59,778 nucleotides of DNA from Escherichia phage vB_EcoS_SA80RD (OL960575.1); one strand, 5' to 3'. Counted from the first letter of the stretch, positions 35,419-54,621 are shown. Numbers and translations are program-made. Notes: generated by a model not told the origin, from the letters alone.

Positions 35419-37395
35419 TTAGAAAGGAACGTAATCCGGATCATCTACTTGCACAGGATTAACCACATTGTTCACTGTTATACCTTGCGTATTCTGCGAA
35501 ACAATATCGTCCCAGCTTACATCATCGTTATAGCTTGGACCTTCCGTTGTTCCATCCTGACCGTATACTTTAACCTGAATTGCTTCGTCGTCCTGTGGAG
35601 CTTCAAACTTACCGAAGCACGTACCATCATAATCATAGTTCAAAATCTCAGGCCATTTCTTATTGGTATGAACTTTGATGTATTTCGGCGTTTTGAGCAT
35701 TGCAGCAACATCAAGAGCTTCTTCAATAGTCTGTGGTAAAGGTAAATGTGTCCTTTTCTTCCACCATGCAACAGCTTTACGACCTGCCCAGTCCCCATGC
35801 AGCAAAGCTACCCATTCACTGAATATTTTACTACCGCAATAATAAGTCACCTTCATTGTTGGAGGTTTAGAGCTGTCATTGCGTTTAGTGTGCTTCGCAT
35901 AAGTAACATGCGTAACTTTGAAGTCTTCAACTACTGGAATATCCTGCTTGATCAGGGCTTCCGTACTTGCAGCTTTCTTGAGTTTGGTCTGGAACTTAAA
36001 CTCATGACCGCAAAAGCCTTCTTTAACGTAATCCGTCCCGCGTAGCCTAAATCCTTTCAGATATAATTGTTGAACTTGTTCCTGTGTGACGCTGTCCATT
36101 GGGATTGGTGCGAAGCCACCGCAATAGCGAGCAGATGCATGATTATACGACCCACATACATCGCATTCTTTAACCGGAGCAGTACCAGCACCTTTTTCGC
36201 CAGGTCGCTTGGGTTTAACAGGGTCGTTAATAGGGCCCAAACGGCGCGTATTACCGCTGAAATCCAGTACAAGGCAGTTCTGCTTGGGGCTTGCTGCAAT
36301 AGCTTGTAAGCGCCCCTCCTGCGTGGAAAGATCAAACCCCTCCGCGTACACCGGACGCGTACCGCGACCCAGCATCTGGACCCATAGCACCGCCGATGCA
36401 GTGGGGCGGAGCATGATAATTAAGTCCAGCATTGGATGATCAAAACCTGTGGTTAAGACGTTATTGTTAGTTAATGCTCGAAATTCACCGCGCTTAAACT
36501 TCTCAATAATCTCGTCACGTTCTTTTGCATCAAGCTTAGAGTGAATACATCCACAGCTAATACCCATATCGTTCAGCATATCACACGCGTCTTTAGCGTG
36601 TTCAATACCAGAACAAAATATAAGCCAGCTTTGACGGTCTTCACCACATTCAATCGCTTCCTCAAGTGCGCGGAGTGTTGCGTCATCGCGGTTTACCGCA
36701 CTTTGCAGCTCACTCTGGATAAACTCACCGCCGCGTTTACCTACCCCGTTGAGGTCCAGCTCCATCTTAGTACGCTTTGGCACAACTGGAAGAAGATAAC
36801 CTTGCTCCAGGAACCAGTTGAAGGCTTCCGGAGTAGTTGCATCAAACGTTACCTTATCAAATAACGCATCATCGTCTTCGTTTTCCTTAACAATTGAACC
36901 ATACCCCAGTCGATAAGGTGTAGCAGTAAGACCGATGATTTTTAAGTAAGGGTTAACTTCACGCAATGCTGCAAAGAACTTCTTATACATTGTTGCATCA
37001 CGCGGACTAATAAGATGCGCTTCGTCCACAAAAATAAGATCAACTTTGCCGAACTTTTTCGGATGCTTAGCAACGGACGCAATCCCTGCAAAGGTAATAA
37101 GATTGTAAACTTCTTTACGCTTCAAACCCGCGCTGTAAATACCTGCTGGCGCTTCGGGCCAGACTTTCATTAATTTATCATAGTTTTGTGCAATTAACTC
37201 TTTGACGTGAGTTAACATCATTACGCGCTGGTTTGGATACCATTTGTAAAGCAGATCGAGGAACCCCGCGATAACGAGCGATTTTCCTGTCCCTGTTGGT
37301 AACAGGATCAAAGGGTTCCCCGCGTTACCCTTTTCAGCATCAAAATAGCGGAATACGCTATAAACTGCTTCCTGTTGATAATCTCTTAATTTCAT
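35419..37395 (-). CDS. SF2 DNA helicase (DEAD/DEAH-box type)
   Basis: Walker A PTGTGKS, DEAH box (VDEAH), helicase C motifs, C-terminal Cys-containing region. Confidence 0.75.
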   Translation of the reverse strand: MKLRDYQQEAVYSVFRYFDAEKGNAGNPLILLPTGTGKSLVIAGFLDLLYKWYPNQRVMMLTHVKELIAQNYDKLMKVWPEAPAGIYSAGLKRKEVYNLITFAGIASVAKHPKKFGKVDLIFVDEAHLISPRDATMYKKFFAALREVNPYLKIIGLTATPYRLGYGSIVKENEDDDALFDKVTFDATTPEAFNWFLEQGYLLPVVPKRTKMELDLNGVGKRGGEFIQSELQSAVNRDDATLRALEEAIECGEDRQSWLIFCSGIEHAKDACDMLNDMGISCGCIHSKLDAKERDEIIEKFKRGEFRALTNNNVLTTGFDHPMLDLIIMLRPTASAVLWVQMLGRGTRPVYAEGFDLSTQEGRLQAIAASPKQNCLVLDFSGNTRRLGPINDPVKPKRPGEKGAGTAPVKECDVCGSYNHASARYCGGFAPIPMDSVTQEQVQQLYLKGFRLRGTDYVKEGFCGHEFKFQTKLKKAASTEALIKQDIPVVEDFKVTHVTYAKHTKRNDSSKPPTMKVTYYCGSKIFSEWVALLHGDWAGRKAVAWWKKRTHLPLPQTIEEALDVAAMLKTPKYIKVHTNKKWPEILNYDYDGTCFGKFEAPQDDEAIQVKVYGQDGTTEGPSYNDDVSWDDIVSQNTQGITVNNVVNPVQVDDPDYVPF

Positions 37396-37898
37396 AAAGG
37401 TCTCACTGTTCCATGATTCTTGTTAAACCCGTATGTAATTTCAGCCTCTTTTCTTGTCTTTATTGCGTCTTGTAGACTTTCAAAATAACCAAGATGCAGC
37501 CGAATACCGTATACATCAATTTGAGCTTTCCATTTCTTATTTACCTTAGCCCATGTCACTCCAGGACAACCGCTCTTATTATTCGATGGTAGTTTTCTAT
37601 TATGGTTGTTATGGTATTTATTACTTTTATTTAGATTAGTTTTCCAATTATGCGTACCGTCACCATCATCATGATCAATTTCTTCAGGTTCTTCATCATA
37701 GAGCATTTTCCAGATTATGCGATGTGCGTAATAATTAAGACCGTTCATAAAAACCATAATATAGGTTTTACCATGATTAAAAGTAACTTCACTCCCTGCA
37801 ATTTGACCGTTATGGTTCCAGAATAAGTTACCGCTATCTTCGCTATAGCTAAAAATCCTATTGAGTTCTTCTTGCGTCGGTAACGGCAACCTTTTCAT
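37392..37898 (-). CDS. HNH-AP2 homing endonuclease-like protein (HNH region degenerate)
   Basis: Shares the AP2-like C-terminus (...LGYFESLQDAIKTRKEAEITYGFNKNHG) with three paralogs, but EIDHDDGDGTHN replaces the canonical EIDHINH...NRxENL; ATG 37898. Confidence 0.55.
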   Translation of the reverse strand: MKRLPLPTQEELNRIFSYSEDSGNLFWNHNGQIAGSEVTFNHGKTYIMVFMNGLNYYAHRIIWKMLYDEEPEEIDHDDGDGTHNWKTNLNKSNKYHNNHNRKLPSNNKSGCPGVTWAKVNKKWKAQIDVYGIRLHLGYFESLQDAIKTRKEAEITYGFNKNHGTVRPL

Positions 37899-37900
37899 AA

Positions 37901-38809
37901 TCAATCTTTCCCGTAATAATTAGCTACTTGATAGTTTTGACAACCAACTTTCTGCCCTTGCGTATCCACTGCGGCGGAATGGAAATTGCAATACCATGTT
38001 CCATCTTCTTTTGGCTCAAGGAATTGACATGTGCGGCAGTTTACTTCCGGCATAGTTTTACGCCAGCATAGTGAGGAGTGATCGCACCATTTACATTCGA
38101 AGAAAGTGGAATCTTTAAATGCGCGGTCCGGAATATCTGTAGCAATAGCAATCTGCACACCACGATCAATATACATGTCCGCGGTAACAGGATCAAACGG
38201 AATAATTTCTGCGTAAACTTCATCGTCATTCTTGTTTACAGCAAGATATAACGCTGCGCCAAGACCTAGTTTTCGCATGTACACGTTCATCTGTACATAG
38301 TGCTCAGGTTTGGCTTCTTTAACACCTTTAGCTTTCAGCTTTTTAAAAGACTTATCGTTATGTGTCTTCATTTCGGTGAGCACAGGCATCCCAGGCTGCA
38401 CGTCCGGACAACCTATAACCACACCATCGCAGGAACCGCCAAAGTGTCCGCCAGCTTCGCTGATACGGAACTGGTGTCCATTTTCGTCCTGCTGGTAGAC
38501 CTGCATACCTGCCGCAAGCAGCATAGCAATGAAACGGGCTTCTTCCAGATGTCCGCGGTTAAACAGTCGAAGCTGGCGTCCGTCAAACTCTTTGCGTGTA
38601 GCCCAGCGATATCCATAGAAAAGCTTGCGTGCGCATTGCTGCCCAATAAGGGAAGCGCCTAAGTGACTGCGGTTACCGCTTTCAGGGCGATAAGCGTCTT
38701 CAATTGTGGGAATGACTACGCCAAGATACTTACGGTAAGTCCCGCCCTGATCTTTTTGCACACCGTCATTGATCGCTTGAAGTGTTTTTTCTGCAATATA
38801 AATAGCCAT
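37901..38809 (-). CDS. PD-(D/E)xK exonuclease (RecB/Cas4-like) with C-terminal Cys cluster
   Basis: D...LTEMK nuclease motif; several Cys near the C-terminus. Confidence 0.55.
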   Translation of the reverse strand: MAIYIAEKTLQAINDGVQKDQGGTYRKYLGVVIPTIEDAYRPESGNRSHLGASLIGQQCARKLFYGYRWATRKEFDGRQLRLFNRGHLEEARFIAMLLAAGMQVYQQDENGHQFRISEAGGHFGGSCDGVVIGCPDVQPGMPVLTEMKTHNDKSFKKLKAKGVKEAKPEHYVQMNVYMRKLGLGAALYLAVNKNDDEVYAEIIPFDPVTADMYIDRGVQIAIATDIPDRAFKDSTFFECKWCDHSSLCWRKTMPEVNCRTCQFLEPKEDGTWYCNFHSAAVDTQGQKVGCQNYQVANYYGKD

Positions 38810-38874
38810 TGGAATACCTTAGAAAAATAAGCCGTCTTTCGACGGCTTATGGACACTACAGAGGGAGGGTTATC

Positions 38875-39759
38875 TTACTGCTGCCATGGCGGGACTGCTG
38901 CTTGTGCTGGATGCGGTTCAGCTTGCTGCTGCGGCTGAGCTTGCTGCTGAGGCGCTGCTGCCTGACCCGGCTGTGCTACCTGTTGCGCCCACGGCTGCTG
39001 AGCTGCTTCCGGTGCTACTGGCTGTTGTACCGGAGCTTGCTGCACTGGCTGCTGTGGTGCTGCGTTTTGAGCAGGATTATCCCACGGCTGCGGTGCGGCA
39101 TTCTGCCACGGTTGTGCTGCTGCGCCCTGCTGTGGTGCTGGTTGCTGCACAGGCTGCTGAACTGGTTGCTGTTGCTGCACCGGAGCTTGCTGCTGTACAG
39201 GCGCTTGCTGTTGCTGTGCAAACGGGTTAGCTGCTGGTTGCTGAGGTGCTGCGCCCGGGAAAGCTGGCTGCTGTGCTGGCGCACCTGCACCGAACGGGTT
39301 AGCTACTGCCGCTTGAGCACCCATTGCTGGAGCACCTGCTTCTTTTTCTGCATACTTAACCGGATCGTTGATGTTAGCATAACCGTTAGGCTCGTTGCTG
39401 TCTTCATAACCTTCCTGAGAACGAACTTTCAGACGCAGGTTCAGCGGAATGTTATGCAGTTGAGCAGGAGTATCCCAGCGAATTACGCCAACCGCATGGG
39501 AAAGCGCGCCCAGTTGTTCGTATGCGATACGCACAGTATCTTCGTTGTCGTTGATAACGTTGTAACGAGCAAAGATTTTACGACCTTTAGCAAAACCATC
39601 AATGATGCTAAACGTTACCTGGATCGCCATACCGCCATTTTTGGTCGGTTTAAATTCAGATGCTTCAATTACTGCTTTATACCAACCTTTCGGCAATGCG
39701 CCGTAAGAAGGTGCTTGATAGCTGCTCGCGTCAAAGTGGAAATTAGTTGGCATAGTCAT
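38875..39759 (-). CDS. DUF669-like putative ssDNA-binding protein with Q/P/A-rich C-terminal tail
   Basis: N-terminal region resembles phage DUF669 proteins found beside Sak4; C-terminal half is PQQ/AQQ low complexity ending PPWQQ. Confidence 0.45.
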   Translation of the reverse strand: MTMPTNFHFDASSYQAPSYGALPKGWYKAVIEASEFKPTKNGGMAIQVTFSIIDGFAKGRKIFARYNVINDNEDTVRIAYEQLGALSHAVGVIRWDTPAQLHNIPLNLRLKVRSQEGYEDSNEPNGYANINDPVKYAEKEAGAPAMGAQAAVANPFGAGAPAQQPAFPGAAPQQPAANPFAQQQQAPVQQQAPVQQQQPVQQPVQQPAPQQGAAAQPWQNAAPQPWDNPAQNAAPQQPVQQAPVQQPVAPEAAQQPWAQQVAQPGQAAAPQQQAQPQQQAEPHPAQAAVPPWQQ

Positions 39760-40487
39760 TAGTTAATACCTTTCATTTTGTTGATAACAGAACCTAAGTG
39801 TGGGACTTCAACCGCATCTAAACGTCCTGAACGATCCTTAGCGATTGTATTAAAGTCCGGTTGAGTTTGCAAGTAACGATACGAGTTACCTTGCTGATCC
39901 TTATTTACATTCAGACGAAATACTTCGTCGAAGAAGTAAGGGAGCATTTGCCCCAATTTGGATCCAGGCATAGATGGAGCATACGCGGTAACACCGGAGA
40001 CTTCATCTTTGTCTTTGCCCATTTTAGCAGACATATAAACATGTTTGCCAGGAATATCACGAAACTTACGGATTAGATCTTGCATCTTTTCAAGCAAAGT
40101 ACCATAAGCTTGACGAGGATCTTTCGTTCCCTTTTTCGCGTTGTTTAAACATTGTTCAGCAATTTCGCTCAAGCTGTCAAGTGCAATAGAATCGAAATAC
40201 TGCTGGTTAGCTGGAGTTACACACCACTGATAAGCCGCTTCAACGTCTTCCAGACATTTCACTTCAATTACCGGAATATCGTAGACGATGGGCAAACCCA
40301 TGTTACCATAAACACGGTTAAGGTTTTCCGCTGCAATAGACAACAGACCGGATTCTGCGCTGATTAAAATTGGTTTAGGTAGTGTGGCTACAAGGCTGGT
40401 TTTACCCATACCTGCTTCACCGTAAACCAGAATTTTAACACCTGTGTCCTGCACAACTTGTGAAGACATTTTAATTTCAATGGCCAT
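39759..40487 (-). CDS. Sak4-like RecA-family ATPase
   Basis: Walker A GEAGMGKTS; about 240 aa; adjacent to DUF669 protein and nuclease. Confidence 0.55.
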   Translation of the reverse strand: MAIEIKMSSQVVQDTGVKILVYGEAGMGKTSLVATLPKPILISAESGLLSIAAENLNRVYGNMGLPIVYDIPVIEVKCLEDVEAAYQWCVTPANQQYFDSIALDSLSEIAEQCLNNAKKGTKDPRQAYGTLLEKMQDLIRKFRDIPGKHVYMSAKMGKDKDEVSGVTAYAPSMPGSKLGQMLPYFFDEVFRLNVNKDQQGNSYRYLQTQPDFNTIAKDRSGRLDAVEVPHLGSVINKMKGIN

Positions 40488-40552
40488 TTAACGCCTCTCT
40501 TTTAAGTTCGCGCTCATTGTAACGTAATATACTTTGAACCCTCAATTACTTT

Positions 40553-42099: not shown

Positions 42100-42112
42100 A
42101 ATAACTCCTGTT

Positions 42113-42136
42113 AAAAAGGGGTCTGTTGACCCCTTT
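42113..42136 (-). terminator. rho-independent terminator (minus strand) just upstream of the RNase H gene
   Basis: GGGGTC-aaca-GACCCC followed by UUUUU on the minus strand. Confidence 0.55.
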
Positions 42137-42142
42137 AGTTTA

Positions 42143-42934: not shown

Positions 42935-42975
42935 TTTAGTTTCCTCTTGGGCGGATTGACCGCCCGTTAATGTGG

Positions 42976-44221: not shown

Positions 44222-44686
44222 TTAAGAATATGTACCTGTTTGGACAATGTGGTTAATAGCATGTGCTCTGAAGATTTCTCTAAAATCTTCAAGCTCTATT
44301 GTAGCGCGAATCGGTTCCTTCTTGATATAATAATTGAACTCATTAATATCAAAGACGGAAGGATTCATACATATAACAACTTTCCAACCAGCTCTAGGAA
44401 TCTTATACATTAAGACCGGAATTTTATTACATTCACGTGCAGACTTAACAGTTTGCTTCCACCATGTATTAACAGCAAGAGTTGCATGGTTTTTAATCTC
44501 TACACAATATTGACAAGTGTTATCAATGTCCGCACCACCTACAGCCGATTGATTCTGTCGTCTTTGTGCGATAGGTTTAGGTGGTAAAGGTCTACCGATA
44601 AGCTCATGTACTTCAGCATAAATATCGTTGAAAAAATCACAAGCTTCCCTTTCAGCTCTAGCCCCTTTGCTACGAATATTAACCAT
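44222..44686 (-). CDS. PD-(D/E)xK nuclease, Holliday-junction resolvase-like (putative)
   Basis: KGARAERE N-terminus and D...VEIK motif; GGAGAA RBS. Confidence 0.45.
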   Translation of the reverse strand: MVNIRSKGARAEREACDFFNDIYAEVHELIGRPLPPKPIAQRRQNQSAVGGADIDNTCQYCVEIKNHATLAVNTWWKQTVKSARECNKIPVLMYKIPRAGWKVVICMNPSVFDINEFNYYIKKEPIRATIELEDFREIFRAHAINHIVQTGTYS

Positions 44687-44697
44687 TTAATTCTCCA

Positions 44698-45180
44698 TCA
44701 CAATCCGTGGTTACTATGAAAACCAAATTTAGTTTCAGCTTCTTTACGAGCACTAACCGCTTCTTCAAACGTATCGAAATAGCCAAGAAAGCGATATTTT
44801 AATTTTGAACGTATCTGCGCCCTCCATTTGCCTACTTTTTGTTCATAACTCACGCCAGTAACACCGGAAGTATTATTTTTCATCATACTTAAATTATGGC
44901 AGTTAATAGACCGATTAGCAAGACGCAGATTCTCTATCCTGTTATCAATCCTGTCATGATTTATATGGTCGATCTCATAACCTTCCGGTATAGGACCGTA
45001 GTGCATCTCATAAATTATACGATGTTCGAGATATTTCTTTCCTTTGTATTTAATTTTCCAATAACCAGAAGTTGAACATATACTGCCAGCCACCTTACCT
45101 GGTCTAGCTCTAGTACCGGATGAAATCTTCCATAATAATCTACCATCATAATATTCAAAGACATCAACCCAATTGATCAT
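44698..45180 (-). CDS. HNH-AP2 homing endonuclease
   Basis: EIDHINHDRIDNRIENLRL HNH motif and AP2-like C-terminus; ATG 45180 with AAGGAGG RBS. Confidence 0.7.
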   Translation of the reverse strand: MINWVDVFEYYDGRLLWKISSGTRARPGKVAGSICSTSGYWKIKYKGKKYLEHRIIYEMHYGPIPEGYEIDHINHDRIDNRIENLRLANRSINCHNLSMMKNNTSGVTGVSYEQKVGKWRAQIRSKLKYRFLGYFDTFEEAVSARKEAETKFGFHSNHGL

Positions 45181-45227
45181 ATTTACCTCCTTTATATGTA
45201 TTTTAATATGAAGTAAAATCAATCTCA

Positions 45228-45260
45228 ATAAAAAAAGCGCAACGTTTTCACGCTGCGCTT
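45228..45260 (-). terminator. rho-independent terminator (minus strand)
   Basis: AGCGCAGCG-loop-CGTTGCGCT (one G-U pair) followed by U7 on the minus strand. Confidence 0.6.
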
Positions 45261-46403: not shown

Positions 46404-46411
46404 CTTACACC

Positions 46412-46869: not shown

Positions 46870-46873
46870 CAAT

Positions 46874-46900
46874 AAAGGGCCGAAAGGCCCTTTATTTATT
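46874..46900. terminator. bidirectional terminator
   Basis: AAAGGGCC-gaaa-GGCCCTTT followed by TATTTATTTG. Confidence 0.6.
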
Positions 46901-49232
46901 TGCTTAAGTCCTTGAAAACACTCTCAATTGACTCGTCTATATACCAACCCAATCCCCTGAAATTACGCTTCAACGCATCTTCACGCGTGACTGGAACGAG
47001 CGCACCCATGTCTACAAGTTGCTTGATGGTAAGGTCTGTTGCAGTACCTGCTCCCATCCTGTGATTCTTGAATGCTGCTAGACCGTAGGTTCTGCGTGTG
47101 ATAGTTGCCTTTGGAATAATACCGTCAACGCGCAGCTCCTTACGATCACATGCAATCTTACCGCCAAGATAGTCTTTGCAGACCTGACAGATAGCCTTCA
47201 CACGTGTTTCGTCATCACCGCCAATAGTACCTTTTTCCCATGCGTTGATCATGATGTCCTGTCCGTGCGTAACAAAATCTACCGCCCATTGCATGTCATT
47301 AGGTTGCACCACAGGATTGATCCAGTTTTCCCCCACCGCTAACAGTGACGCAAGACGTAGAGCTTTAAGGTGTGCACGGTTCCAAGGCTGACGGATTGCT
47401 TCGTCTTTGGTTGCGTTAATGTGTTCGTCACATAACAGGTTAAACTCCCGTTCAATCCTTTCAGCTTCAGGACTTAACTGGACTGTGACAGTTTGAAACT
47501 TCGCCATTGTTACTAAGGTGTGGTTAACAAGATGGCACACCATGTCCTTTAACTGCTGGGGCATTATAATCTCAGGGTTTTCGTTTGCAGGAACTCGATC
47601 TCCTTCATATTGCACAATGTGGAAACGGGACAAGAAACCGTCTTCCATCATTTCACGGGTTAATGCTTCAAAGAACGTGTCCGGCGTTGTTTCTCCCAGC
47701 ACGCTGAACGCCACCCCTTCCATCGTTTTGGTATTATTAGCCTTATCAGAATATCCGATACCGCCAACAACATCCATCGCACCAGATTTTTGATACACAT
47801 CTGTGATAGTTTGCTTCAGGGTATAGTTTGCAGTGCCAGGTTGAGCCGTTGCCATACCTTTAATGGTTTTGCCAAACTCGCCGTTAATATTCACAAACGA
47901 ACTATGATCCGCAAAACTTTTACGCAACGCAGGACCAGACGCATAGTTAGTCATGTCTACAAATTCATGAACTTGCGGTAATTGCTCCCCTACTTGTTTA
48001 CAAATATAGCTGGGCCCGGCGTGAAGCATCTCTTTACCCACACCAGATCGAGCAATAAGCACAAAATAACCGTTCAATCCTGTGTTGGTGATAGTATTCC
48101 ATACCTTACCGCACACACCAGACAGAAATGCTAACGATGCGGTGATTGCAATTTCTTTAACCGGACGCTGCGATGCTTTGTAGATATACTTTGCAAGCTC
48201 ACCAGCAAGCCCCGGCGGCCACTCAATAGCGGTTGCATCAATGGACGTACTTTCTGCAACTACTATTTCACCGGACGGGCTGACTGTGGTTACAGGCATT
48301 TCCGTTACTTGCTGCATTGTGCTGTGTGCGGCTTGCATACGGGCAGCGTAATCCCGCGCCAGCGCTGCTACGTTTTCCTGAGCAATACGCTCACGCTCCA
48401 TGCGACCGCGACACATACGCAAGCAACGGTCAATATGAACATTGTTCTTATTAGCCTTCTCACGTTTGCCCAGTGCACTATAACGGAACAGACGACGACA
48501 TTGCTCATTACTTTCCGTGTAGAATGCATACATAGAAATAAGGGCAAGGTCTGCTTCAGACTGGGAAGGGAATCCCATTTCAACCCATTCACCGTTAAAT
48601 AACCGTGCATACTTATCGCCGTTATCTGCTTCAAGCGCACGCTGATGAATAGTTGCATCATCTTCTACCGGATCTTTTTCTACCAGTTCAATTTCATATG
48701 TCTTGCGCTGAAGATCAATTTCATTCACAAGCATAGTAAGGTAATGATCACGTTCTGCAACTGGTTTGTTGTACACAGGATTACCAGTGCAGATAATAAA
48801 ACGCTCCTGACTATAAACCTCGACACCATCACGTCGACGGCCTTTACCGATGTTACCTCTTAACCACAGGTGAACACCCAAGCCTGAGCGACTCACTTCG
48901 GTGTAAGTATCGAACGCAGTCATGATCTGTTCGAAGCGGCGCAACTGCTCCGGCGTCGTGTGCTTCTTGGGGTCCGGTTCATTGGTTGCATTCTTCACAT
49001 CCAGATCAATGCAGGTGAACGGGTCTTGTGCAGTAAGCACGAAGCCAATATAAGGTTTATTGAAATGAGCGGCGCAACCTTTGGCAGCTTCAAACGTCAT
49101 AAGCATATCCGGATCGGTAACGTCCGCCGCCATCAAACGTCCGATATCGTTATCCCATATTAATGGGCGTTTATCTTCACCAGCAATAGCCCACTGATTG
49201 TATTGTTTGATTTCATCAGGAAATAATTTCAT
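46896..49232 (-). CDS. primase-polymerase / helicase (AEP-type primase with SF3-like ATPase)
   Basis: N-terminal GVHLWLRG prim-pol-like motif; central ARSGVGKE Walker A; ATG 49232 (track start 49241 is GTG). Confidence 0.65.
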   Translation of the reverse strand: MKLFPDEIKQYNQWAIAGEDKRPLIWDNDIGRLMAADVTDPDMLMTFEAAKGCAAHFNKPYIGFVLTAQDPFTCIDLDVKNATNEPDPKKHTTPEQLRRFEQIMTAFDTYTEVSRSGLGVHLWLRGNIGKGRRRDGVEVYSQERFIICTGNPVYNKPVAERDHYLTMLVNEIDLQRKTYEIELVEKDPVEDDATIHQRALEADNGDKYARLFNGEWVEMGFPSQSEADLALISMYAFYTESNEQCRRLFRYSALGKREKANKNNVHIDRCLRMCRGRMERERIAQENVAALARDYAARMQAAHSTMQQVTEMPVTTVSPSGEIVVAESTSIDATAIEWPPGLAGELAKYIYKASQRPVKEIAITASLAFLSGVCGKVWNTITNTGLNGYFVLIARSGVGKEMLHAGPSYICKQVGEQLPQVHEFVDMTNYASGPALRKSFADHSSFVNINGEFGKTIKGMATAQPGTANYTLKQTITDVYQKSGAMDVVGGIGYSDKANNTKTMEGVAFSVLGETTPDTFFEALTREMMEDGFLSRFHIVQYEGDRVPANENPEIIMPQQLKDMVCHLVNHTLVTMAKFQTVTVQLSPEAERIEREFNLLCDEHINATKDEAIRQPWNRAHLKALRLASLLAVGENWINPVVQPNDMQWAVDFVTHGQDIMINAWEKGTIGGDDETRVKAICQVCKDYLGGKIACDRKELRVDGIIPKATITRRTYGLAAFKNHRMGAGTATDLTIKQLVDMGALVPVTREDALKRNFRGLGWYIDESIESVFKDLSK

Positions 49233-49233
49233 C

Positions 49234-49758
49234 TTATACACCCAATTTGTTACAACCGTGGTTCTTGTGAAAATTGTGATCAGTTAATGCTTTACTTACA
49301 GCCATCTGTGCATCTTCAAAAGTATCATATACTCCAAGATATTTTGAAGTCCCGTCCACGCCTATACGAGCTTGCCATTTATTAGTACCTTTGTGAAATG
49401 TAACTCCATTTACTCCAGAGGTATTATTGCGTTTCTTACTTTGATTTCGACCATTTTCTTTGTGAGTAACTAAACGCAAGTTTTCAATGCGGTCGTCGTA
49501 ACGAACGTGATTAATATGATCAATTTCCATCCCTTCCGGTATAGGACCGTTGAACATTTCCCATACTATTCGTGAACGACGATATAGTTTACCATTAAGG
49601 GTAATACGAACATATCCTTTATCCGTAAGCGTACCTGCAACGCATCCTTCTTTTGCTCTTGCACCCATATCTTTCTTCCAATACAACACTCCTTCATTAT
49701 ATTGGAATACTACCGCCCATTGTGGGAAAGCTTTAATTTCAGCGGGAAACAGTTCCAT
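49234..49758 (-). CDS. HNH-AP2 homing endonuclease
   Basis: EIDHINHVRYDDRIENLRL plus AP2-like C-terminus ending ...HKNHG. Confidence 0.7.
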   Translation of the reverse strand: MELFPAEIKAFPQWAVVFQYNEGVLYWKKDMGARAKEGCVAGTLTDKGYVRITLNGKLYRRSRIVWEMFNGPIPEGMEIDHINHVRYDDRIENLRLVTHKENGRNQSKKRNNTSGVNGVTFHKGTNKWQARIGVDGTSKYLGVYDTFEDAQMAVSKALTDHNFHKNHGCNKLGV

Positions 49759-49764
49759 ATTTAA

Positions 49765-49968
49765 TTAAGACCTCCGACGCTTATCGCCTTGCATCTTTTC
49801 CAGGACGGGTTCTGCTAATGAACGTTTATAGATGTACACGCTACCGATTTTAATAGCGCCGGGAATGCATTCGCGCATTCTGGAGAGCTTAAATTTTGAA
49901 ATACCGAACTGGTTTTCAATTTCGGTAGTTGTTATATAGTTGTCATTAAATTCTTCGACGTGGGTCAT
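49765..49968 (-). CDS. small helix-turn-helix DNA-binding protein (putative transcriptional regulator)
   Basis: 67 aa; ITTTEIENQFGISKFKLSRM resembles an HTH; strong AAGGAGGAG RBS. Confidence 0.45.
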   Translation of the reverse strand: MTHVEEFNDNYITTTEIENQFGISKFKLSRMRECIPGAIKIGSVYIYKRSLAEPVLEKMQGDKRRRS

Positions 49969-50029
49969 AGCTCCTCCTTTGTCCGCACACTATACACAGA
50001 TAAGAGGAGCCATTGCAATGCGTTTTGCG

Positions 50030-50776
50030 TTACAGGATATGGGGGCAATAATATTTATCCATAACAAACTGAAAAACTTCTTCAGGTGTGCGGTCATTAC
50101 GAAGTTCAATCATATGATTGTCCAGCCATGCTAAACTCTCCTCAGCCTTATCTCTATTATTAAAGTGCAATAGCTTTGAAGGTGTATCGCCAGGAAGGGT
50201 AACTTCAATACAAAATGAACCTGTTTCTAAATGCGTTATGTCGCAAGTCGGCCAAACGCCGCGGTTTTCCCATATAGAAGGCGCATCCTCAAATCTGCAT
50301 GAGCTATACCATTTATTGCGAAGAGATGTGATCTCCTTACTTGTTAACGGGGCGCCCTTAACTCTTTCATGTTCCTCCAGCCAAGCTTTAAATTTTGGGT
50401 TAGGTTTGCGCCCCGGCTTCCCACCTTTCGCCTTTGCGCTTTCTTTAAACGCTTGCTCGTATGGGTCTGATCCTTTGCCCATGTGGTAATTGAATTTGCC
50501 CGTATAGCTGCGAAGCTCTTTGGCGTCCAGTTCATGTCCCAGCTTATCGCTCACCCATGCAAGGAAAGCTTCCCGCTCTGCATCCAGCTTTCCCGCTTTC
50601 GGTCTTACAGATTTTTTAACTGGCTGCTCCACATCCTCGTTGAAGTAATCTTCCACCATAGCAAGCGCCTGTGATTTGGTTGGTGCACCACGCAACCGTG
50701 AGCACGCTTGCACAACCCAAGCCGCGAAGCACATATCCTTAACCACAGTCTTTGAGGTAATAATTTCTTCACTCAT
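50030..50776 (-). CDS. hypothetical protein (first gene downstream of the iteron region)
   Basis: About 249 aa from ATG 50776 with GGTGG RBS. Confidence 0.45.
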   Translation of the reverse strand: MSEEIITSKTVVKDMCFAAWVVQACSRLRGAPTKSQALAMVEDYFNEDVEQPVKKSVRPKAGKLDAEREAFLAWVSDKLGHELDAKELRSYTGKFNYHMGKGSDPYEQAFKESAKAKGGKPGRKPNPKFKAWLEEHERVKGAPLTSKEITSLRNKWYSSCRFEDAPSIWENRGVWPTCDITHLETGSFCIEVTLPGDTPSKLLHFNNRDKAEESLAWLDNHMIELRNDRTPEEVFQFVMDKYYCPHIL

Positions 50777-50863
50777 AATCCACCTATACGCGTAGAAAGA
50801 AAGGTAATCATATAACAAAGTTTTTGTAATCGCAAAACCTTCGCAAAACTTTGTCTTTCCTGC

Positions 50864-50892
50864 ATTATATTAAACCATAGTGCTAGTGGCCA
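50864..50892 (-). promoter_or_regulatory. candidate sigma70-type promoter (minus strand), TGGCCA-17-TATAAT
   Basis: On the minus strand: -35 TGGCCA (50887-50892), 17-bp spacer, -10 TATAAT (50864-50869); spacer overlaps an ATAGTG iteron. Confidence 0.35.
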
Positions 50893-51105
50893 GCATAGTG
50901 GCATCACCGCTTATAGTGCGCCGTTACTGGCTTCGCTATAGTGTGCCACTATACGTGCACTATACACTAATAGCTAATTTTATTTTTGTTAGCGGTAATA
51001 AAGTTTTGGGTTTTTGGGGGGACCCCCTAATATACCCCGGAAAAAACAAAGAAATAGTAGTAGTAGTGAAAACATAGTGAAATGCCACTATCTCACTATC
51101 ACTAC
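50877..51105. repeat. iteron cluster: ATAGTG / GCCACTAT hexamer-octamer repeats in both orientations
   Basis: ATAGTG at 50877, 50895, 50913, 50938, 51074; CACTAT at 50947, 50958, 51086, 51094; lies in a 660-bp ORF-free region with an AT-rich stretch (51180-51270) and a G6-A-C5 tract (51015-51027). Confidence 0.6.
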
Positions 51106-51372
51106 TAATTTAATGTAATTTATGGGGGTGTCTATGTACCAAAAACCTAAAACTTTCAGTCAACAGACTAAAAACGGATAGAAACTAAAAGTTAATAAGT
51201 AATACCATAAATATATATAAAATAAGGATTTATTAATAATGTATATAGTACCTATTGGTATTATTTGAATGTTTTTGGGTCTGCAACAAAAAGTCGCAAA
51301 ACTCACAAAACCTGAACGGATGCAGATCAAAAACGAGAAGTCAAGTGCTTTTGAGGGAAATTTATTGAACTA

Positions 51373-51402
51373 TTGTGATCGGAAGGTATATCAAGCTATA
51401 AT
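51373..51402 (+). promoter_or_regulatory. candidate sigma70-type promoter (plus strand), TTGTGA-18-TATAAT
   Basis: -35 TTGTGA 51373-51378, -10 TATAAT 51397-51402; would read antisense to the minus-strand early genes. Confidence 0.3.
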
Positions 51403-51486
51403 GCGCTTAATCGCGGGATATTGGAGGAGGACTTTATTGCGCGGTTAACCGGACCAGTAGGAGGGCTGGCCCGGAGTAGTTAGAAT

Positions 51487-51663
51487 TTATTTGCGGACGA
51501 ATACAGATCCGACAAATAATGTTGATTGGGTAGCAGCTTGCTCGATTAATTCGCCAACAAGCTGTGATTGAGTAAGAGGTCGTAAACCTTCTTTGGCGCG
51601 TGCTTCATTTACACGACGTTGAAGGTCTTTTAAGTATTGAGTTGCGAAACTATCTAATTGCAT
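51487..51663 (-). CDS. small hypothetical protein (58 aa)
   Basis: ATG with AAGGATAAGAA upstream; translates to MQLDSFATQYLKDLQRRVNEARAKEGLRPL...; below the ORF-track cutoff. Confidence 0.3.
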   Translation of the reverse strand: MQLDSFATQYLKDLQRRVNEARAKEGLRPLTQSQLVGELIEQAATQSTLFVGSVFVRK

Positions 51664-51835
51664 TTCTTATCCTTAGGGCTCCCGCAGAAGCCCGTCAGTG
51701 AACAGTGTGGTTATAGATTATGCCAGTGAGTACCTTGCTTTTAATTTTTGGTTTGCTGCGATAATTTTACATACAGGTATAACAACCAGAAGATCATTAT
51801 ACTCCAGCCAGAATTGAATGAGCGCCTGCATTTAA

Positions 51836-52450
51836 TTAACCCTCCAAGCCGTTATATTTGCGCCAGGCGTAGAACTGAATGGCTACCGTCGTCCCGTTGT
51901 AAGAAGGCATTGCAGCTTTCATTTCTTTCAGCTCCGGCGTGCGGCCCAGTTCCTTCAGAAGCTTGTCGCCCATTGCCCACACTTCGGCAGTTTTTCCTTT
52001 CAGGGGCTTGCGAGCGCCATTTTTGAAATCACAGCGAGCAGCTTTTGCATCCTGTTTTGGCGCGGCAGCTTTTGGCTCTTCAATTTTGATTTCAGAAACC
52101 TGCGTGGCAGCTTTTGCGTGTTTCATATCTTTCTCTTCCTCCTGCTCCAGAGCTTCGAGGCAGCTTTTGACGATTTCCGGATTTACCATCGGGCGCAGTA
52201 CCGAGACGCTGGCAGCTGGCGCGGCGGTCGGTGCTGGGACTTTTTGCTCCGGCTGTTGCGCTTTTTTATGGTCGTGCAGTACCTGAAGCACTTCCTTCTC
52301 GACGATGTAAAAACCGATCTCGTCCTGATGGATTAGCTGTTCGTGCGCATCGCGTGCAACCTGGCCCCAGCGGGTCTTAAGAGCGCGGCGTGCATTCGTT
52401 TTCATGGTGTAGCGCATTTTATCCTGTTCGCGGTGAGTTACTTTAGACAT
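51836..52450 (-). CDS. hypothetical early protein
   Basis: 204 aa with GAGGAA RBS. Confidence 0.45.
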   Translation of the reverse strand: MSKVTHREQDKMRYTMKTNARRALKTRWGQVARDAHEQLIHQDEIGFYIVEKEVLQVLHDHKKAQQPEQKVPAPTAAPAASVSVLRPMVNPEIVKSCLEALEQEEEKDMKHAKAATQVSEIKIEEPKAAAPKQDAKAARCDFKNGARKPLKGKTAEVWAMGDKLLKELGRTPELKEMKAAMPSYNGTTVAIQFYAWRKYNGLEG

Positions 52451-52534
52451 GGTATATTCCTCTGTTAGATTGTTTAGTTGTCTTGCTAAGTTGACTTATT
52501 ATTGCCCAGTCAGATTAACTAGGCAAGATATAAA

Positions 52535-52687
52535 TCACTTAATTTGTACTAAATCGTATTCCTTGTAGATGTCGCTAATGTACATGTCGAACTGTCCCAT
52601 TAAGAAGATTTCAGCCTCCTCCCAGCTTGGAGCAGATACATAACCAGCTATTTTACCGGACGCGAGTTCCACTAATTTGAATTCCAT
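52535..52687 (-). CDS. small hypothetical early protein
   Basis: 50 aa from ATG 52687 with AAGGG RBS. Confidence 0.3.
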   Translation of the reverse strand: MEFKLVELASGKIAGYVSAPSWEEAEIFLMGQFDMYISDIYKEYDLVQIK

Positions 52688-52774
52688 GATGCAACCCTTA
52701 ATGTGGTTAAGCAGTATTGCTTTGTTGAAGTAATAATAGCCTTGCATCGTGATATTGAATAGGCCAAAAGTGCT

Positions 52775-52802
52775 ATTTTAGAATAGTTTTGCATCTAGTG
52801 AA
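52775..52802 (-). promoter_or_regulatory. candidate early promoter (minus strand), TTCACT-16-TAAAAT
   Basis: Read on the minus strand in the divergent intergenic region 52688-53222. Confidence 0.3.
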
Positions 52803-53222
52803 AATTATGTTTGCCCTGCATGTTTAGCACAAATGGCCTAACTAACATCACATCATCTGGAGTATTCGCACGGGCGCACACATACATATAAAGCTGCCAA
52901 AATATTTTTATAAAAAGATGCAAAAGGTGTAGACACATGATCGATCTAGCGCTACTATATATTCAAAGGAAAGGGAAGCAGAAGTGCAAAGTACCAATCC
53001 TGAGTAGTAAGGTTAGGGAAAGCTGAATAGCTAAAGTACTTAACAGCTAATCGGAAGGTGAATCGTCCGGATGAAAAAGGCCGGCAAGTGTTGAGAAAGG
53101 GCACGTTGAGTAAGTCTCGAAAAGAGGCGCTCCAAGACACCTTCTCCGACTTTACGAAGATCGGGACCTTCCGGGATTAGCGTGTAATAACATATAATTG
53201 GTCAACTTAAGAGACAAATACT

Positions 53223-53366
53223 ATGGCACGCAAATACACACTTACACGCGCACAGCACGCTAAATTAGCTGAAGCAATGAAGATTCAATATAAAGCTTAC
53301 GGTTGGCGCTCTGCAATGGACTTCGGTCGTGCAATGTATCAAGCAATGGTTGGAGGTGCAAAATGA
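53223..53366 (+). CDS. small hypothetical protein (47 aa)
   Basis: First plus-strand ORF after the divergent region; stop overlaps next start (ATGA). Confidence 0.25.
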   Translation: MARKYTLTRAQHAKLAEAMKIQYKAYGWRSAMDFGRAMYQAMVGGAK

Positions 53367-53692
53367 AACGTCTATTGATTGCTACTTTGTTTGCTGGTGT
53401 ATTCGCAGTCAATAGTTGTGAAGCTGCGGATGCTGTGGTAGATGCGTATAGCTGTAAAGCCTTAGTGGCGGAGCTTATTAAACAAGATAACTATAAGAAT
53501 AAAACCACGCTTGATAATGAGGTTGCTTATTGTCAGACTGTAAAAAGATTATTTTTAAACGGTCAATATCGAAATGTTGAACAAGTTAATAATATTCTTC
53601 GTGACCGTTTTGGAGCGGACTATGAGGCTCGCAAGCATTATCTGGCGTTAGCCACTGCGGCAATGCTTGCAGCTCACATTAATAAAGAGTGA
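53363..53692 (+). CDS. secreted hypothetical protein
   Basis: ATG 53363 with GGAGG RBS; signal-peptide-like MKRLLIATLFAGVFAVNSCEA; the ORF-track start upstream is unsupported. Confidence 0.45.
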   Translation: MKRLLIATLFAGVFAVNSCEAADAVVDAYSCKALVAELIKQDNYKNKTTLDNEVAYCQTVKRLFLNGQYRNVEQVNNILRDRFGADYEARKHYLALATAAMLAAHINKE

Positions 53693-53723
53693 TAACAATT
53701 TAATATTAAACTGTGAGGTCACT

Positions 53724-53813
53724 ATGAATCACTGGAAGATAATATTATCACTGATATTGTATAGTGTGTTACTATGTGCTATCCATTATGCAATAATTAA
53801 CCACATTGAATAA
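53724..53813 (+). CDS. candidate 29-aa hydrophobic micro-protein
   Basis: ATG with GTGAGGT RBS; MNHWKIILSLILYSVLLCAIHYAIINHIE. Confidence 0.25.
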   Translation: MNHWKIILSLILYSVLLCAIHYAIINHIE

Positions 53814-53883
53814 CGCACACAGCGCCACGCTAGTGAGCTAATGTACATAGGTAATGGTAATGCATTAGCTCGGGCGAAACAGG

Positions 53884-53930
53884 CGCACAGCGTCGCGCAC
53901 AGCTCGCACAGCGCACACAGACCCACGCAG
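53884..53930. repeat. GC-rich imperfect tandem repeat (CGCACAG)n
   Basis: CGCACAG at 53884, 53896, 53905, 53912 in an otherwise AT-rich intergenic region; the overlapping track ORFs on both strands look spurious. Confidence 0.5.
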
Positions 53931-54138
53931 GCCCAGCCGCGCAACCCGACCCCACCTTTTCCGAGTACTTGGATCGGTAGGGCGTGCCCTGTCTATCCTG
54001 ATAGTAACACACGCTTGAAATTCTAACCATCACATACCCCACCTACCATAAAAAGTGACCCTTAGGAGTTTCACGCTTTCTATATACTGGGTTTAGTGCT
54101 AAAATATAGGTGATGTAAACTTGATCAGAGGCATTGAA

Positions 54139-54621
54139 ATGAACTGGAATGAAATATTTGAATACAAAGACGGTGTTTTGTATTGGAAACATAACAGACG
54201 GGGTGGTAGAGGTATAAAGATAGGCGACAGTGCAGGTAGTAGACTTCAAACCGGATACACGCAGATTGTATTTGAAGGCGAACACTACTTGCGGCACCAC
54301 ATAGTGTGGTTAATGCACGGTAGATGTATACCAAAAGGTATGGAAATAGATCATATTGACCATGACCGTCAAAATGACCGAATTGAAAATTTAAGATTGG
54401 TAACAGCATCTGAAAATAGTAGAAATAAAAGTAAGCCTATGACAAATAAATCTGGTGTTGTTGGTATAACTTGGCATAAACGCGATCTTAGATGGCAAGC
54501 GCATATTAAAATTGATGGCAAGAAACTATATCTAGGATATTTTGATAACTTTAATGATGCAGTTAAAGCACGAAAGGAAGCGGAATTGCTGTATAATTTC
54601 CACGAAAACCACGGTAAATGA
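54139..54621 (+). CDS. HNH-AP2 homing endonuclease
   Basis: EIDHIDHDRQNDRIENLRL plus AP2-like C-terminus ...FHENHG; ATG 54139 with AGAGG RBS (track start is TTG). Confidence 0.7.
   Translation: MNWNEIFEYKDGVLYWKHNRRGGRGIKIGDSAGSRLQTGYTQIVFEGEHYLRHHIVWLMHGRCIPKGMEIDHIDHDRQNDRIENLRLVTASENSRNKSKPMTNKSGVVGITWHKRDLRWQAHIKIDGKKLYLGYFDNFNDAVKARKEAELLYNFHENHGK

What the first reader, a model, noticed from the sequence alone, without database searches (positions are those of the whole stretch)
37392..54621. Four paralogous HNH-AP2 homing endonuclease genes, one with a degenerate HNH motif
ORFs at 44698-45180, 49234-49758 and 54139-54621 share an EIDHI(N/D)H...DNRIENLRL HNH core and an AP2-like C-terminus ending in HxNHG. 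A fourth paralog at 37392-37898 keeps the C-terminal domain but has EIDHDDGDGTHN in place of the HNH core, suggesting loss of nuclease activity with retained DNA binding. Each sits between conserved replication genes, and the 44698 copy lies just downstream of a terminator, as expected for free-standing mobile insertions. Their targets and any link to the over-represented 9-mer are unknown.
Basis: partly seen in the sequence, partly recalled or inferred. Interest (0 to 1): 0.45.

Follow-up and report, generated by a model that had tools for sequence, protein, structure and literature searches.

The report
Four HNH-AP2 homing endonuclease genes
This E. coli phage (genus Seuratvirus) carries four selfish "homing endonuclease" genes of a very common, already annotated family, each wedged against the start of a conserved phage gene; none looks inactivated, so the finding is real but ordinary.

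Summary
The four ORFs exist as described: A 37392-37898(-), B 44698-45180(-), C 49234-49758(-), D 54139-54621(+). They are homologous (33-51% aa) and all fall in PHROG 99. Each has an I-HmuI-like HNH domain followed by an AP2 DNA-binding domain.

The window is a Seuratvirus (93-97% nt to Skure, SLUR25, CAjan, WildeMaa). Relatives differ in content at every one of the four sites, which fits free-standing mobile genes. Seurat and SLUR25 have none of the four. A and C recur in two other phages each. D has a 65% allele in four phages. B is found only on one metagenomic contig.

The "degenerate HNH" reading of A is not supported:
- A keeps the residues equivalent to I-HmuI D74, H75, N87 and N96.
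- Its model folds as HNH plus AP2 (pLDDT 88).
- dN/dS against the VogelGryff copy is 0.19.

The detail not annotated in the relatives' records is how the genes are inserted. C sits in frame inside the primase gene: it uses the primase's own first 16 codons, and a recoded primase 5' end follows its stop codon. That recoded allele is found only in phages that carry C. A takes the helicase ATG in the same way.

Cleavage and homing are inferred, not shown. No link to the 9-mer TGTGGTTAA was found.

The parts
37392..37898 (-). HEG A: 168-aa HNH-AP2 protein between the Cas4-like exonuclease gene (37901-38809) and the SF2 helicase gene (35419-37395)
   Evidence: ORF. PHROG 99 at E = 4e-53. AF2 model pLDDT 88 with HNH beta-beta-alpha plus AP2 fold. 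Foldseek top hit I-HmuI 1u3e, plus AP2 domains. 97-99% aa copies at the same site in VogelGryff and slur01. Absent from six of the seven relatives fetched, present in VogelGryff.
37384..37395 (-). New helicase start codon and recoded codons 2-4 (ATG AAA TTA AGA; native ATG CAG CTC CGC). The ATG overlaps A's stop (ATGA).
   Evidence: Junction comparison with six relatives that lack A. The L and R codons are changed synonymously. A itself uses the ATG position that is the helicase start in relatives lacking A.
44698..45180 (-). HEG B: 160-aa HNH-AP2 protein, first gene after the operon promoter, 11 nt upstream of the PDDEXK_15 ('RusA-like') gene 44222-44686
   Evidence: ORF with AGGAGG ribosome-binding site. 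HNH_3 at E = 1e-19. Best phage-database relative only 58% aa. One 98% homologue on metagenomic contig L008 in the same context. Dru_SM1 and VogelGryff carry a different HNH (42-44% aa) at the same site.
45200..45260 (-). Terminator (45260-45235) and promoter-like site (45228-45200) upstream of B
   Evidence: Consensus scan. Shared at about 97% with the B-site alleles of Dru_SM1 and VogelGryff. Relatives without an HEG here have a different-sequence terminator and promoter at the same place.
49234..49758 (-). HEG C: 174-aa HNH-AP2 protein inserted in frame in the primase ORF
   Evidence: ORF. HNH_3 at E = 4e-21. The PHROG 99 match starts at residue 16. 97% aa copies at the same site in Dru_SM1 and ECP2304.
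49712..49758 (-). Captured native primase 5' end. The first 47 nt (16 codons, MELFPAEIKAFPQWAV) of C are the primase start of relatives that lack C.
   Evidence: 100% identical to SLUR25 primase nt 1-47. The upstream ribosome-binding site and upstream gene are also native.
49143..49232 (-). Replacement primase 5' end: new ATG one base after C's stop, with codons 2-30 recoded
   Evidence: 61 of 90 nt identical to the native allele, against about 97% over the next 270 nt. 9 synonymous and 11 non-synonymous codon changes. GC 0.34 against 0.47. This allele occurs only in the two phages that carry C, out of 33 records matched.
54139..54621 (+). HEG D: 160-aa HNH-AP2 protein in the rightward early region
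   Evidence: ORF. HNH_3 at E = 2e-19. 65-66% aa alleles at the same site in WildeMaa, Dru_SM1, Skure and phiG7. Absent from CAjan, Seurat, VogelGryff and SLUR25.
54062..54640 (+). Approximate extent of the D cassette (leader, gene, spacer to the next gene)
   Evidence: Multiple alignment with four genomes lacking D and three carrying a D-like allele. Genomes lacking D have unrelated sequence here, including the 21-codon N-terminal extension of the downstream gene.
54641..54826 (+). Downstream 61-aa gene (CAjan gp76 homologue). Shortened at its 5' end, and differs mostly synonymously in its first codons, relative to genomes lacking D.
   Evidence: GTG AGA CTT GGA CCT TAT... against native ATG CGA TTA GGC CCA TAT...; about 79% nt over the gene against CAjan, Seurat and SLUR25 (88% against VogelGryff).

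Best explanation
The four ORFs are free-standing homing endonuclease genes of the widespread phage HNH-AP2 family. They were acquired independently, not duplicated in this genome.

Each protein has three parts: an I-HmuI-like N-terminal DNA-contact region, an HNH beta-beta-alpha metal nuclease core, and a C-terminal AP2 DNA-binding domain.

The likely mechanism is intronless homing. In a mixed infection with a relative that lacks the gene, the enzyme nicks or cuts that relative's DNA near the 5' end of the neighbouring conserved gene. Those genes are the helicase, the PDDEXK_15 nuclease, the primase and the gp76-like gene. Recombinational repair from the endonuclease-bearing genome then copies in the gene together with a short flanking tract. 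The carrier genome is spared because the site is split by the insertion and its flank is rewritten.

Expression depends on the host operon. A and C use the native ribosome-binding site and start codon of the gene they invaded. They hand that gene a new start codon by stop-start coupling. C is a literal in-frame fusion to the first 16 primase codons.

Shown here: the domain architecture, the retained catalytic residues, the exact insertion sites, the recoded flanks and their linkage to the endonuclease genes, the patchy distribution, and purifying selection. Inferred: cleavage itself, the position of the target sites, and current mobility.
For: Architecture:
- Pfam HNH_3 for B, C and D and PHROG 99 for all four.
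- The family profile hits I-HmuI 1u3e at E = 3e-8 and the WRI1 AP2 domain at E = 3e-6.
- The AF2 model of A (pLDDT 88.2) matches 1u3e. It also matches the AP2 domains of AtERF1, WRI1 and TEM1 at rmsd 1.5-2.4 A with probability 1.0.
- Catalytic residues are retained in all four.

Mobility signature:
- Seurat and SLUR25 have none of the four. A is only in VogelGryff and slur01. C is only in Dru_SM1 and ECP2304. D-like alleles are in four phages. B is in no phage record.
- The flanks of A are 99.3-99.5% identical to SLUR25, which lacks A. They are 94.9-98.3% identical to VogelGryff, which carries it.
- Cassette GC is 0.36-0.38 against 0.44 for the genome.
- The four copies are not monophyletic in a tree of 154 family members.

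Insertion anatomy:
- Searches give the junctions.
- The recoded primase allele is linked to C in 2 of 2 carrier records. It is not found in the other records matched.

Selection:
- dN/dS is 0.19 for A (7 synonymous and 6 non-synonymous changes, Fisher p = 0.004), 0.05 for B, 0.09 for C and 0.25 for D.

Published context:
- HNH + AP2 is a recognised endonuclease family (Magnani et al. 2004, as cited in PMC10448857).
- Intronless homing and co-conversion are reviewed in PMC2988022.
Against: - No cleavage or homing has been shown for any of these proteins or, to my knowledge, for any close homologue.
- A scores below Pfam's HNH_3 cut-off. It deviates at five conserved non-catalytic positions, including R90N next to the structural Asn.
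- In T4, free-standing endonucleases often cut hundreds to thousands of bp from their gene (PMC2988022). The rewritten flanks could therefore be co-converted donor sequence and not the target.
- At sites B and D the whole neighbouring gene is a divergent allele (66-79% nt), not a short patch. The immunity argument is weaker there.
- Seuratvirus DNA carries 7-deazaguanine (PMC8594841). Whether these enzymes cut modified DNA is unknown.
- The presence/absence census rests on 7 fetched relatives plus database hit tables, not on all 44 records.
Confidence: 0.8

Rival explanations
1. Copy A is a nuclease-dead derivative that survives as a sequence-specific DNA-binding protein. It might, for example, regulate or protect the helicase region.
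For: - A is the most divergent copy. Its Pfam HNH_3 score of 17.6 bits is below the 24.8-bit cut-off.
- Five positions conserved in at least 80% of the family are changed: G68D, I77D, D83H, R85W and R90N.
- Model confidence dips to 72-76 over residues 91-110.
- Purifying selection would also fit a non-catalytic function.
Against: - D75, H76, N84, N88, L89, N97 and N100 are all kept. D75, H76, N88 and N97 are the I-HmuI D74, H75, N87 and N96 equivalents.
- The DHxDG form is that of the active enzyme I-HmuI, and A's nearest homologues share it.
- The beta-beta-alpha fold is predicted intact and matches 1u3e.
- The patchy distribution, on backbones that differ from each other, and the rewritten helicase start look like a mobile gene.
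Confidence: 0.12
2. The genes are real homing endonucleases, but the rewritten 5' ends of the neighbouring genes are not immunity determinants. They are only donor-derived flanks dragged in by co-conversion, or left by an illegitimate join. The cleavage sites lie elsewhere.
For: - T4 Seg enzymes cut far from their genes and drag flanking markers along (PMC2988022).
- The rewritten primase patch has the low GC of the cassette, 0.34. That suggests a foreign origin and not selection in place.
- At sites B and D the whole adjacent gene is a different allele.
Against: - The primase patch is short and sharply bounded: 68% identity over 90 nt, then about 97%.
- It sits directly at the insertion point and is found only in phages that carry C.
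- The native 90 nt are almost invariant among the seven phages lacking C whose primase starts were read. That is what is expected of a conserved target.
- The helicase patch changes 7 of 9 bases while keeping L and R.
Confidence: 0.25
3. The genes are no longer mobile. They are kept because they help the phage in some other way. Examples are cutting competitors' DNA in co-infection without self-transfer, starting recombination-dependent replication, or acting as a terminase-associated HNH factor.
For: - All four are intact and under purifying selection.
- They sit in replication and recombination operons and are translationally coupled to essential genes.
Against: - Close relatives, including Seurat and SLUR25, lack all four, so none is needed for growth.
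- Packaging-type HNH proteins sit next to terminase genes (established knowledge). These do not.
- Competitor cutting is part of ordinary homing endonuclease biology, not an alternative to it.
Confidence: 0.1

Closest known systems
I-HmuI (Bacillus phage SPO1 intron-encoded HNH nicking endonuclease, PDB 1u3e)
   Same: The N-terminal DNA-contact region and the HNH core are alike. D74, H75, N87 and N96 align with the window proteins. A even shares the DHxDG...NL spacing.
   Different: I-HmuI is encoded inside a group I intron. Its C-terminal DNA-binding part is not an AP2 domain. Identity is only about 21-26%. The window genes are free-standing.
HNH-AP2 homing endonucleases of phages, cyanobacteria and protists (Magnani et al. 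2004; 'IPA-HNH' genes of Vibrio phage ICP1, PMC10448857)
   Same: N-terminal HNH plus C-terminal AP2 domain. Free-standing, several per genome, clustered near essential genes.
   Different: The ICP1 proteins are too divergent for the Pfam HNH_3 model, whereas B, C and D match it strongly. No member close to the window proteins has been characterised biochemically, to my knowledge.
Annotated 'HNH / putative homing endonuclease' genes of other Seuratvirus phages (VogelGryff bas25_0047, slur01, Dru_SM1 NGRRMQZB_71 and _90, WildeMaa bas23_0081, Skure)
   Same: A and C are 97-99% identical to these and lie at the same sites. D is a 65% allele at the same site.
   Different: B has no close counterpart in the phage records. 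No single relative has this set of four. Those records do not annotate the primase-codon capture or the recoded 5' ends.
T4 free-standing endonucleases (SegF, SegG, MobE): intronless homing
   Same: Free-standing genes between conserved genes. Patchy distribution. Linked flanking polymorphism consistent with co-conversion and marker exclusion (PMC2988022).
   Different: Seg enzymes are GIY-YIG. Mob enzymes are HNH with other DNA-binding domains. T4 cleavage sites are often distant from the gene. Here the rewritten tract abuts the insertion point.
Unorthodox intragenic HNH insertions (ShiLan element in actinophage methylase genes, PMC11855218)
   Same: An HNH gene sits inside a host ORF without an intron or intein.
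   Different: ShiLan is read through in frame by the host gene, with the HNH in another frame. C here is fused in frame to the host gene's first 16 codons and ends with a stop codon. The host gene then restarts with its own rewritten 5' end.

Membership tests
HNH_3 / I-HmuI-like HNH endonucleases | Significant match to the family model | tested here: met
   B, C and D match PF13392 at 69-75 bits (cut-off 24.8). A scores only 17.6 bits with Pfam. A matches PHROG 99 at E = 4e-53, and the family profile that includes A hits 1u3e at E = 3e-8.
HNH_3 / I-HmuI-like HNH endonucleases | Catalytic His (general base), metal-ligand Asp and Asn, and structural Asn (I-HmuI H75, D74, N96, N87) | tested here: met
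   Present in all four. In A they are D75, H76, N88 and N97. These columns are 99-100% conserved in 154 family members. The functional roles of the I-HmuI residues are taken from my own knowledge of the published structure.
HNH_3 / I-HmuI-like HNH endonucleases | Beta-beta-alpha metal fold | tested here: met
   Tested for A only. The AF2 model has strands 73-76 and 89-92 and helix 94-99. The top Foldseek PDB hit is 1u3e with probability 1.0.
HNH_3 / I-HmuI-like HNH endonucleases | Metal-dependent site-specific DNA nicking or cleavage | not testable with these tools
   Needs purified protein and substrates.
AP2 DNA-binding domain (PF00847) | Match to the Pfam model at its gathering score | tested here: not met
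   B, C and D score 19-21 bits against a 33.3-bit cut-off. A has no hit. Some homologues carry precomputed PF00847 hits.
AP2 DNA-binding domain (PF00847) | Three-stranded sheet packed on one helix, superposable on solved AP2 domains | tested here: met
   A residues 114-155. AtERF1 1gcc at rmsd 1.5 A over 50 columns, WRI1 at 2.1 A over 56, TEM1 at 2.4 A over 55, all with probability 1.0. The family profile matches the WRI1 AP2 domain at E = 3e-6.
Free-standing homing endonuclease genes (intronless homing) | Not inside a self-splicing intron or intein | tested here: met
   No Rfam family reaches its gathering score anywhere in the window. Each gene has its own stop codon. C is fused to 16 host codons but is not spliced.
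Free-standing homing endonuclease genes (intronless homing) | Presence/absence polymorphism at a precise site among close relatives | tested here: met
   The insertion of A is a clean segment of about 503 nt.
Free-standing homing endonuclease genes (intronless homing) | Carrier allele differs from the empty allele at or near the insertion site (self-immunity) | tested here: inconclusive
   Sharp rewritten patches are linked to A and C. Whole-gene allelic divergence is seen at B and D. Whether these bases form the recognition site has not been tested.
Free-standing homing endonuclease genes (intronless homing) | Super-Mendelian inheritance with co-conversion in crosses | not testable with these tools
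   Needs mixed-infection experiments.
Terminase-associated HNH packaging factors (HK97 gp74 type) | Conserved position next to the terminase or portal genes, present in all relatives | tested here: not met
   The genes lie in the replication and early regions and are absent from several relatives.

The most novel reading that the evidence does not exclude
A and C may represent a distinct insertion mode for free-standing homing endonucleases, which could be called 'start capture with a portable replacement'. The endonuclease gene lands at or just inside the start of an essential gene and takes over its ribosome-binding site and start codon. C even keeps 16 host codons as its own N-terminus. The cassette carries, behind its stop codon, a recoded replacement 5' end that restores the host gene by stop-start coupling. 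The same recoding removes the enzyme's own target. If this is general, targets of uncharacterised phage endonucleases could be read directly from genome comparisons. For C the prediction is native primase nt 1-90.
Probability: 0.35. Interest if true: 0.45.

Novelty: new member of a known kind. Interest (0 to 1): 0.27.

Why it matters
The practical value is mainly in annotation.
- These four genes should be labelled HNH-AP2 homing endonucleases.
- The true primase start is the ATG at 49232.
- The first 16 codons of C belong historically to the primase gene.

Beyond that, this phage and its sequenced relatives form a ready-made set of filled and empty sites for testing an uncharacterised but very abundant endonuclease family. 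The family has hits in 2,900-4,400 phage records. The comparisons give concrete predicted targets. They also allow a natural test of whether such enzymes cut 7-deazaguanine-modified DNA. The finding does not change what is known about homing endonucleases.

Tried and rejected
- Single-sequence searches of A and D against PDB sequences gave nothing useful for A and only a marginal I-HmuI hit for D. A family profile was needed.
- In-genome duplication was rejected as the origin of the four copies. Each has closer relatives in other phages, and the four are not monophyletic.
- The terminator as a mark of insertion was rejected. Relatives without an endonuclease gene at site B have an equivalent terminator and promoter there.
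- A link to the over-represented 9-mer was not found. TGTGGTTAA occurs 27 times against 0.67 expected. No copy lies at any junction. One copy lies inside D.
- A group I intron or other structured RNA: no Rfam hit and no tRNA in the window.
- A suspected third primase-start allele in slur01, KurtStettler and SA126VB turned out, for slur01 (the one fetched), to be the ordinary native allele missed by BLAST.
- An exact-sequence look-up of B found nothing. Its 98% homologue P0023 sits in the same context on a 1.8-kb metagenomic contig.
- The literature search found no description of these genes in Seuratvirus beyond their annotation.

Full report
**What is there**

The window carries four ORFs at the stated places: A 37392-37898(-), B 44698-45180(-), C 49234-49758(-) and D 54139-54621(+).
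- They align end to end. Identity to A is 33-42%, and B, C and D are 47-51% identical to each other.
- tblastn finds no fifth copy in the window.
- Pfam places B, C and D in HNH_3 at E = 1e-19 to 4e-21, with AP2 hits below the cut-off.
- A reaches only 17.6 bits for HNH_3, below the 24.8-bit cut-off, and has no AP2 hit.
- PHROG 99 'HNH endonuclease' matches all four at E = 4e-53 to 1e-67. For C the match begins at residue 16.

**Which genome this is**

The 20 kb around the finding is 93-97% identical to Escherichia phages of the genus Seuratvirus (Queuovirinae). These include Skure, SLUR25, VogelGryff, CAjan, Seurat, WildeMaa and Dru_SM1. No record covers 80% of the region.

The flanking genes are as follows:
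- an SF2 helicase (ResIII / Helicase_C);
- a dUTPase;
- a PDDEXK_15 nuclease, annotated 'RusA-like' in relatives;
- a primase-helicase (NrS-1 polymerase HBD + DUF3987).

The gene next to A at 37901-38809 gave no Pfam hit. It is annotated as a Cas4-domain exonuclease in the relatives' records.

**Domain architecture**

A profile of A, its homologues and B-D hits I-HmuI (1u3e) at E = 3e-8 over the N-terminal two thirds. It hits the AP2 domain of WRI1 (7wq5) at E = 3e-6 over the C-terminal third.

An AlphaFold2 model of A has pLDDT 88.2. It shows a beta-rich N-terminus, an HNH beta-beta-alpha unit (strands 73-76 and 89-92, helix 94-99), and a three-strand-plus-helix unit (residues 114-155).

Foldseek against the PDB ranks I-HmuI first. 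It also superposes AtERF1, WRI1 and TEM1 AP2 domains at 1.5-2.4 A with probability 1.0. The HNH-AP2 label therefore holds for all four, including A. This architecture is a recognised homing endonuclease family (Magnani et al. 2004, as cited in PMC10448857).

**Is A's HNH motif degenerate?**

No evidence says so.
- The HMMER alignment of D to 1u3e fixes the I-HmuI numbering: D74, H75, N87 and N96.
- In the alignments these correspond to A's D75, H76, N88 and N97.
- In a 154-member family alignment these columns, and N100, are 99-100% conserved, and A keeps all of them. It also keeps N84 (91%) and L89 (97%).
- A's 'DHDDGDG...N...NL' has the I-HmuI spacing ('DHKDGNK..N...NL'). Its nearest homologues P0002 and P0003 share it.
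- A does differ at five positions conserved in at least 80% of the family: G68D, I77D, D83H, R85W and R90N.
- Model confidence falls to 72-76 over residues 91-110.
- Between the window and VogelGryff copies there are 7 synonymous and 6 non-synonymous changes. This gives dN/dS of 0.19 with Fisher p = 0.004.

A is thus a divergent but apparently constrained member of the family. Loss of activity can be neither excluded nor inferred.

**Distribution among relatives**

| Copy | Where else it occurs |
|---|---|
| A | 97-99% aa in VogelGryff and slur01, same site |
| B | No close relative among 50,697 phage records (best 58%, Salmonella phage LPSTLL). One 98% homologue on a 1.8-kb metagenomic contig next to the same PDDEXK_15 gene |
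| C | 97% aa in Dru_SM1 and ECP2304, same site |
| D | 65-66% alleles at its site in WildeMaa, Dru_SM1, Skure and phiG7 |

- Seurat and SLUR25 have none of the four in this region.
- Relatives also carry endonuclease genes that the window lacks. Examples are CAjan gp67 / WildeMaa bas23_0074 and a dUTPase-adjacent gene in Skure.
- The family is very large, with 2,900-4,400 phage records hit per query.
- In a neighbour-joining tree of 154 members the four window copies are not monophyletic. Each has nearer relatives elsewhere. They are family members acquired separately, not in-genome duplicates.
- Cassette GC is 0.36-0.38 against 0.44 for the genome.

**Insertion anatomy of A**

In six relatives the exonuclease stop is followed by TT (or T) and the helicase ATG: '...GATTGATTATG CAG CTC CGC GAT...'.

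In the window the same ATG opens A. A's stop then overlaps a new helicase ATG (ATGA), followed by AAA TTA AGA GAT. Seven of nine bases differ, and Leu and Arg are kept by synonymous codons.

The surrounding flanks are 99.3-99.5% identical to SLUR25, which lacks A. They are only 94.9-98.3% identical to VogelGryff, which carries A. The gene therefore sits on different backbones.

**Insertion anatomy of C**

- The first 47 nt of C (16 codons, MELFPAEIKAFPQWAV) are identical to the primase start of relatives that lack C. The upstream ribosome-binding site is native too.
- From codon 17 onward the sequence is the endonuclease.
- One base after C's stop a new ATG opens the primase.
- The new primase start reads MKLFPDEIKQYNQWAIAGEDKRPLIWDNDIG. 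The native start reads MELFPAEIKAFPQWAVADADKKPLVWDNDIG.
- Over the first 90 nt only 61 bases match the native allele, with 9 synonymous and 11 non-synonymous codon changes.
- The next 270 nt are about 97% identical.
- The rewritten patch has GC 0.34 against 0.47 for the native sequence.
- Among 33 phage records matched, this allele is found only in the two that carry C.
- The native 90 nt are nearly invariant among the phages lacking C whose primase starts were read.

**Insertion anatomy of B and D**

B is the first gene after a terminator (45260-45235) and a promoter-like site (45228-45200). This terminator-promoter pair marks an operon start that also exists, with a different sequence, in relatives without an endonuclease gene here. 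It is therefore not a sign of insertion.

Dru_SM1 and VogelGryff share the window's leader and the first 9 nt (ATGATCAAT). They then carry a different HNH gene (42-44% aa). The adjacent PDDEXK_15 gene is a divergent allele: 66% nt to the CAjan type and 84-86% to the Dru_SM1 type.

D's cassette runs from about 54062 to 54640. Genomes lacking D have unrelated sequence there, including a 21-codon N-terminal extension of the downstream gene. The first codons of that gene differ mostly synonymously.

**Mechanism**

The best reading is intronless homing, as described for T4 free-standing endonucleases (PMC2988022).
1. The enzyme cuts or nicks the empty allele in a co-infecting relative.
2. Repair copies in the gene plus a flank.
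3. The carrier genome is spared because the site is split and rewritten.

Expression rides on the host operon. The invaded essential genes are restored by stop-start coupling.

Cleavage, target position and present mobility are inferences. The T4 precedent of distant cleavage sites is a real caveat. So is the unknown effect of 7-deazaguanine modification in this genus (PMC8594841).

**Comparison with what is known, and verdict**

The genes are annotated as HNH or homing endonucleases in several relatives. The architecture, the clustering near essential genes and the flank conversion are all established. B is a new family member.

The capture of primase codons and the portable rewritten 5' ends are not annotated in the relatives' records. 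I did not find them described for these phages. The ShiLan element (PMC11855218) shows that unorthodox intragenic HNH insertions are already known.

Verdict: real and correctly recognised as HNH-AP2 homing endonuclease genes. The 'dead nuclease' idea is unsupported. Novelty is low, with one neat structural detail.

Noticed in passing
window, 27 sites (e.g. 3332, 6577, 44248, 54305, 56453): TGTGGTTAA occurs 27 times against 0.67 expected. Its reverse complement TTAACCACA is one base from the DnaA-box consensus TTATCCACA as I recall it. One copy lies inside D (54305-54313) and is conserved in D-like alleles. Genomes lacking D carry ATGTGGTTA in the segment that D replaces. Its function is unknown.
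   Followed up: partly
window 37666-37724 and L006 (Skure) 8862-8920: A 59-nt stretch of A, coding HRIIWKMLYDEEPEEIDHD, is about 97% identical in DNA to an otherwise only 43%-aa-identical HNH gene at a different site in Skure. This looks like a gene-conversion patch between endonuclease genes.
   Followed up: partly
window 54040-54830 vs L001 (WildeMaa) 18057-18838: D and the D-like allele are mosaic. The leader, gene ends and downstream flank are 88-100% identical, and the HNH core is 82-92%. The N-terminal DNA-contact part and the AP2 part are only 52-62%. The DNA-binding modules may have been swapped or have diversified.
   Followed up: partly
window 44660-45171; L004 8526-9021; L005 8984-9496: Site B is occupied by two unrelated HNH lineages in different phages. 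They share the same leader and the first 9 nt of the ORF. This points to a hot spot with cassette replacement.
   Followed up: partly
window 44222-44686: The gene annotated 'RusA-like Holliday junction resolvase' in relatives matches Pfam PDDEXK_15 (E = 2e-13), and RusA was not among the Pfam families returned. It occurs as two alleles that are 66% identical in DNA.
   Followed up: no
L004 (Dru_SM1) 15573-15872 (+): A fragment of about 95 aa is 31-36% identical to the HNH proteins. It overlaps a 330-nt annotated 'hypothetical protein'. It is probably a decayed endonuclease gene.
   Followed up: no
window 49232 vs 49241: The longest primase ORF starts at GTG 49241, inside C. Comparison with relatives indicates that the real start is the ATG at 49232, one base after C's stop. 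Dru_SM1's record annotates the longer, overlapping start.
   Followed up: yes
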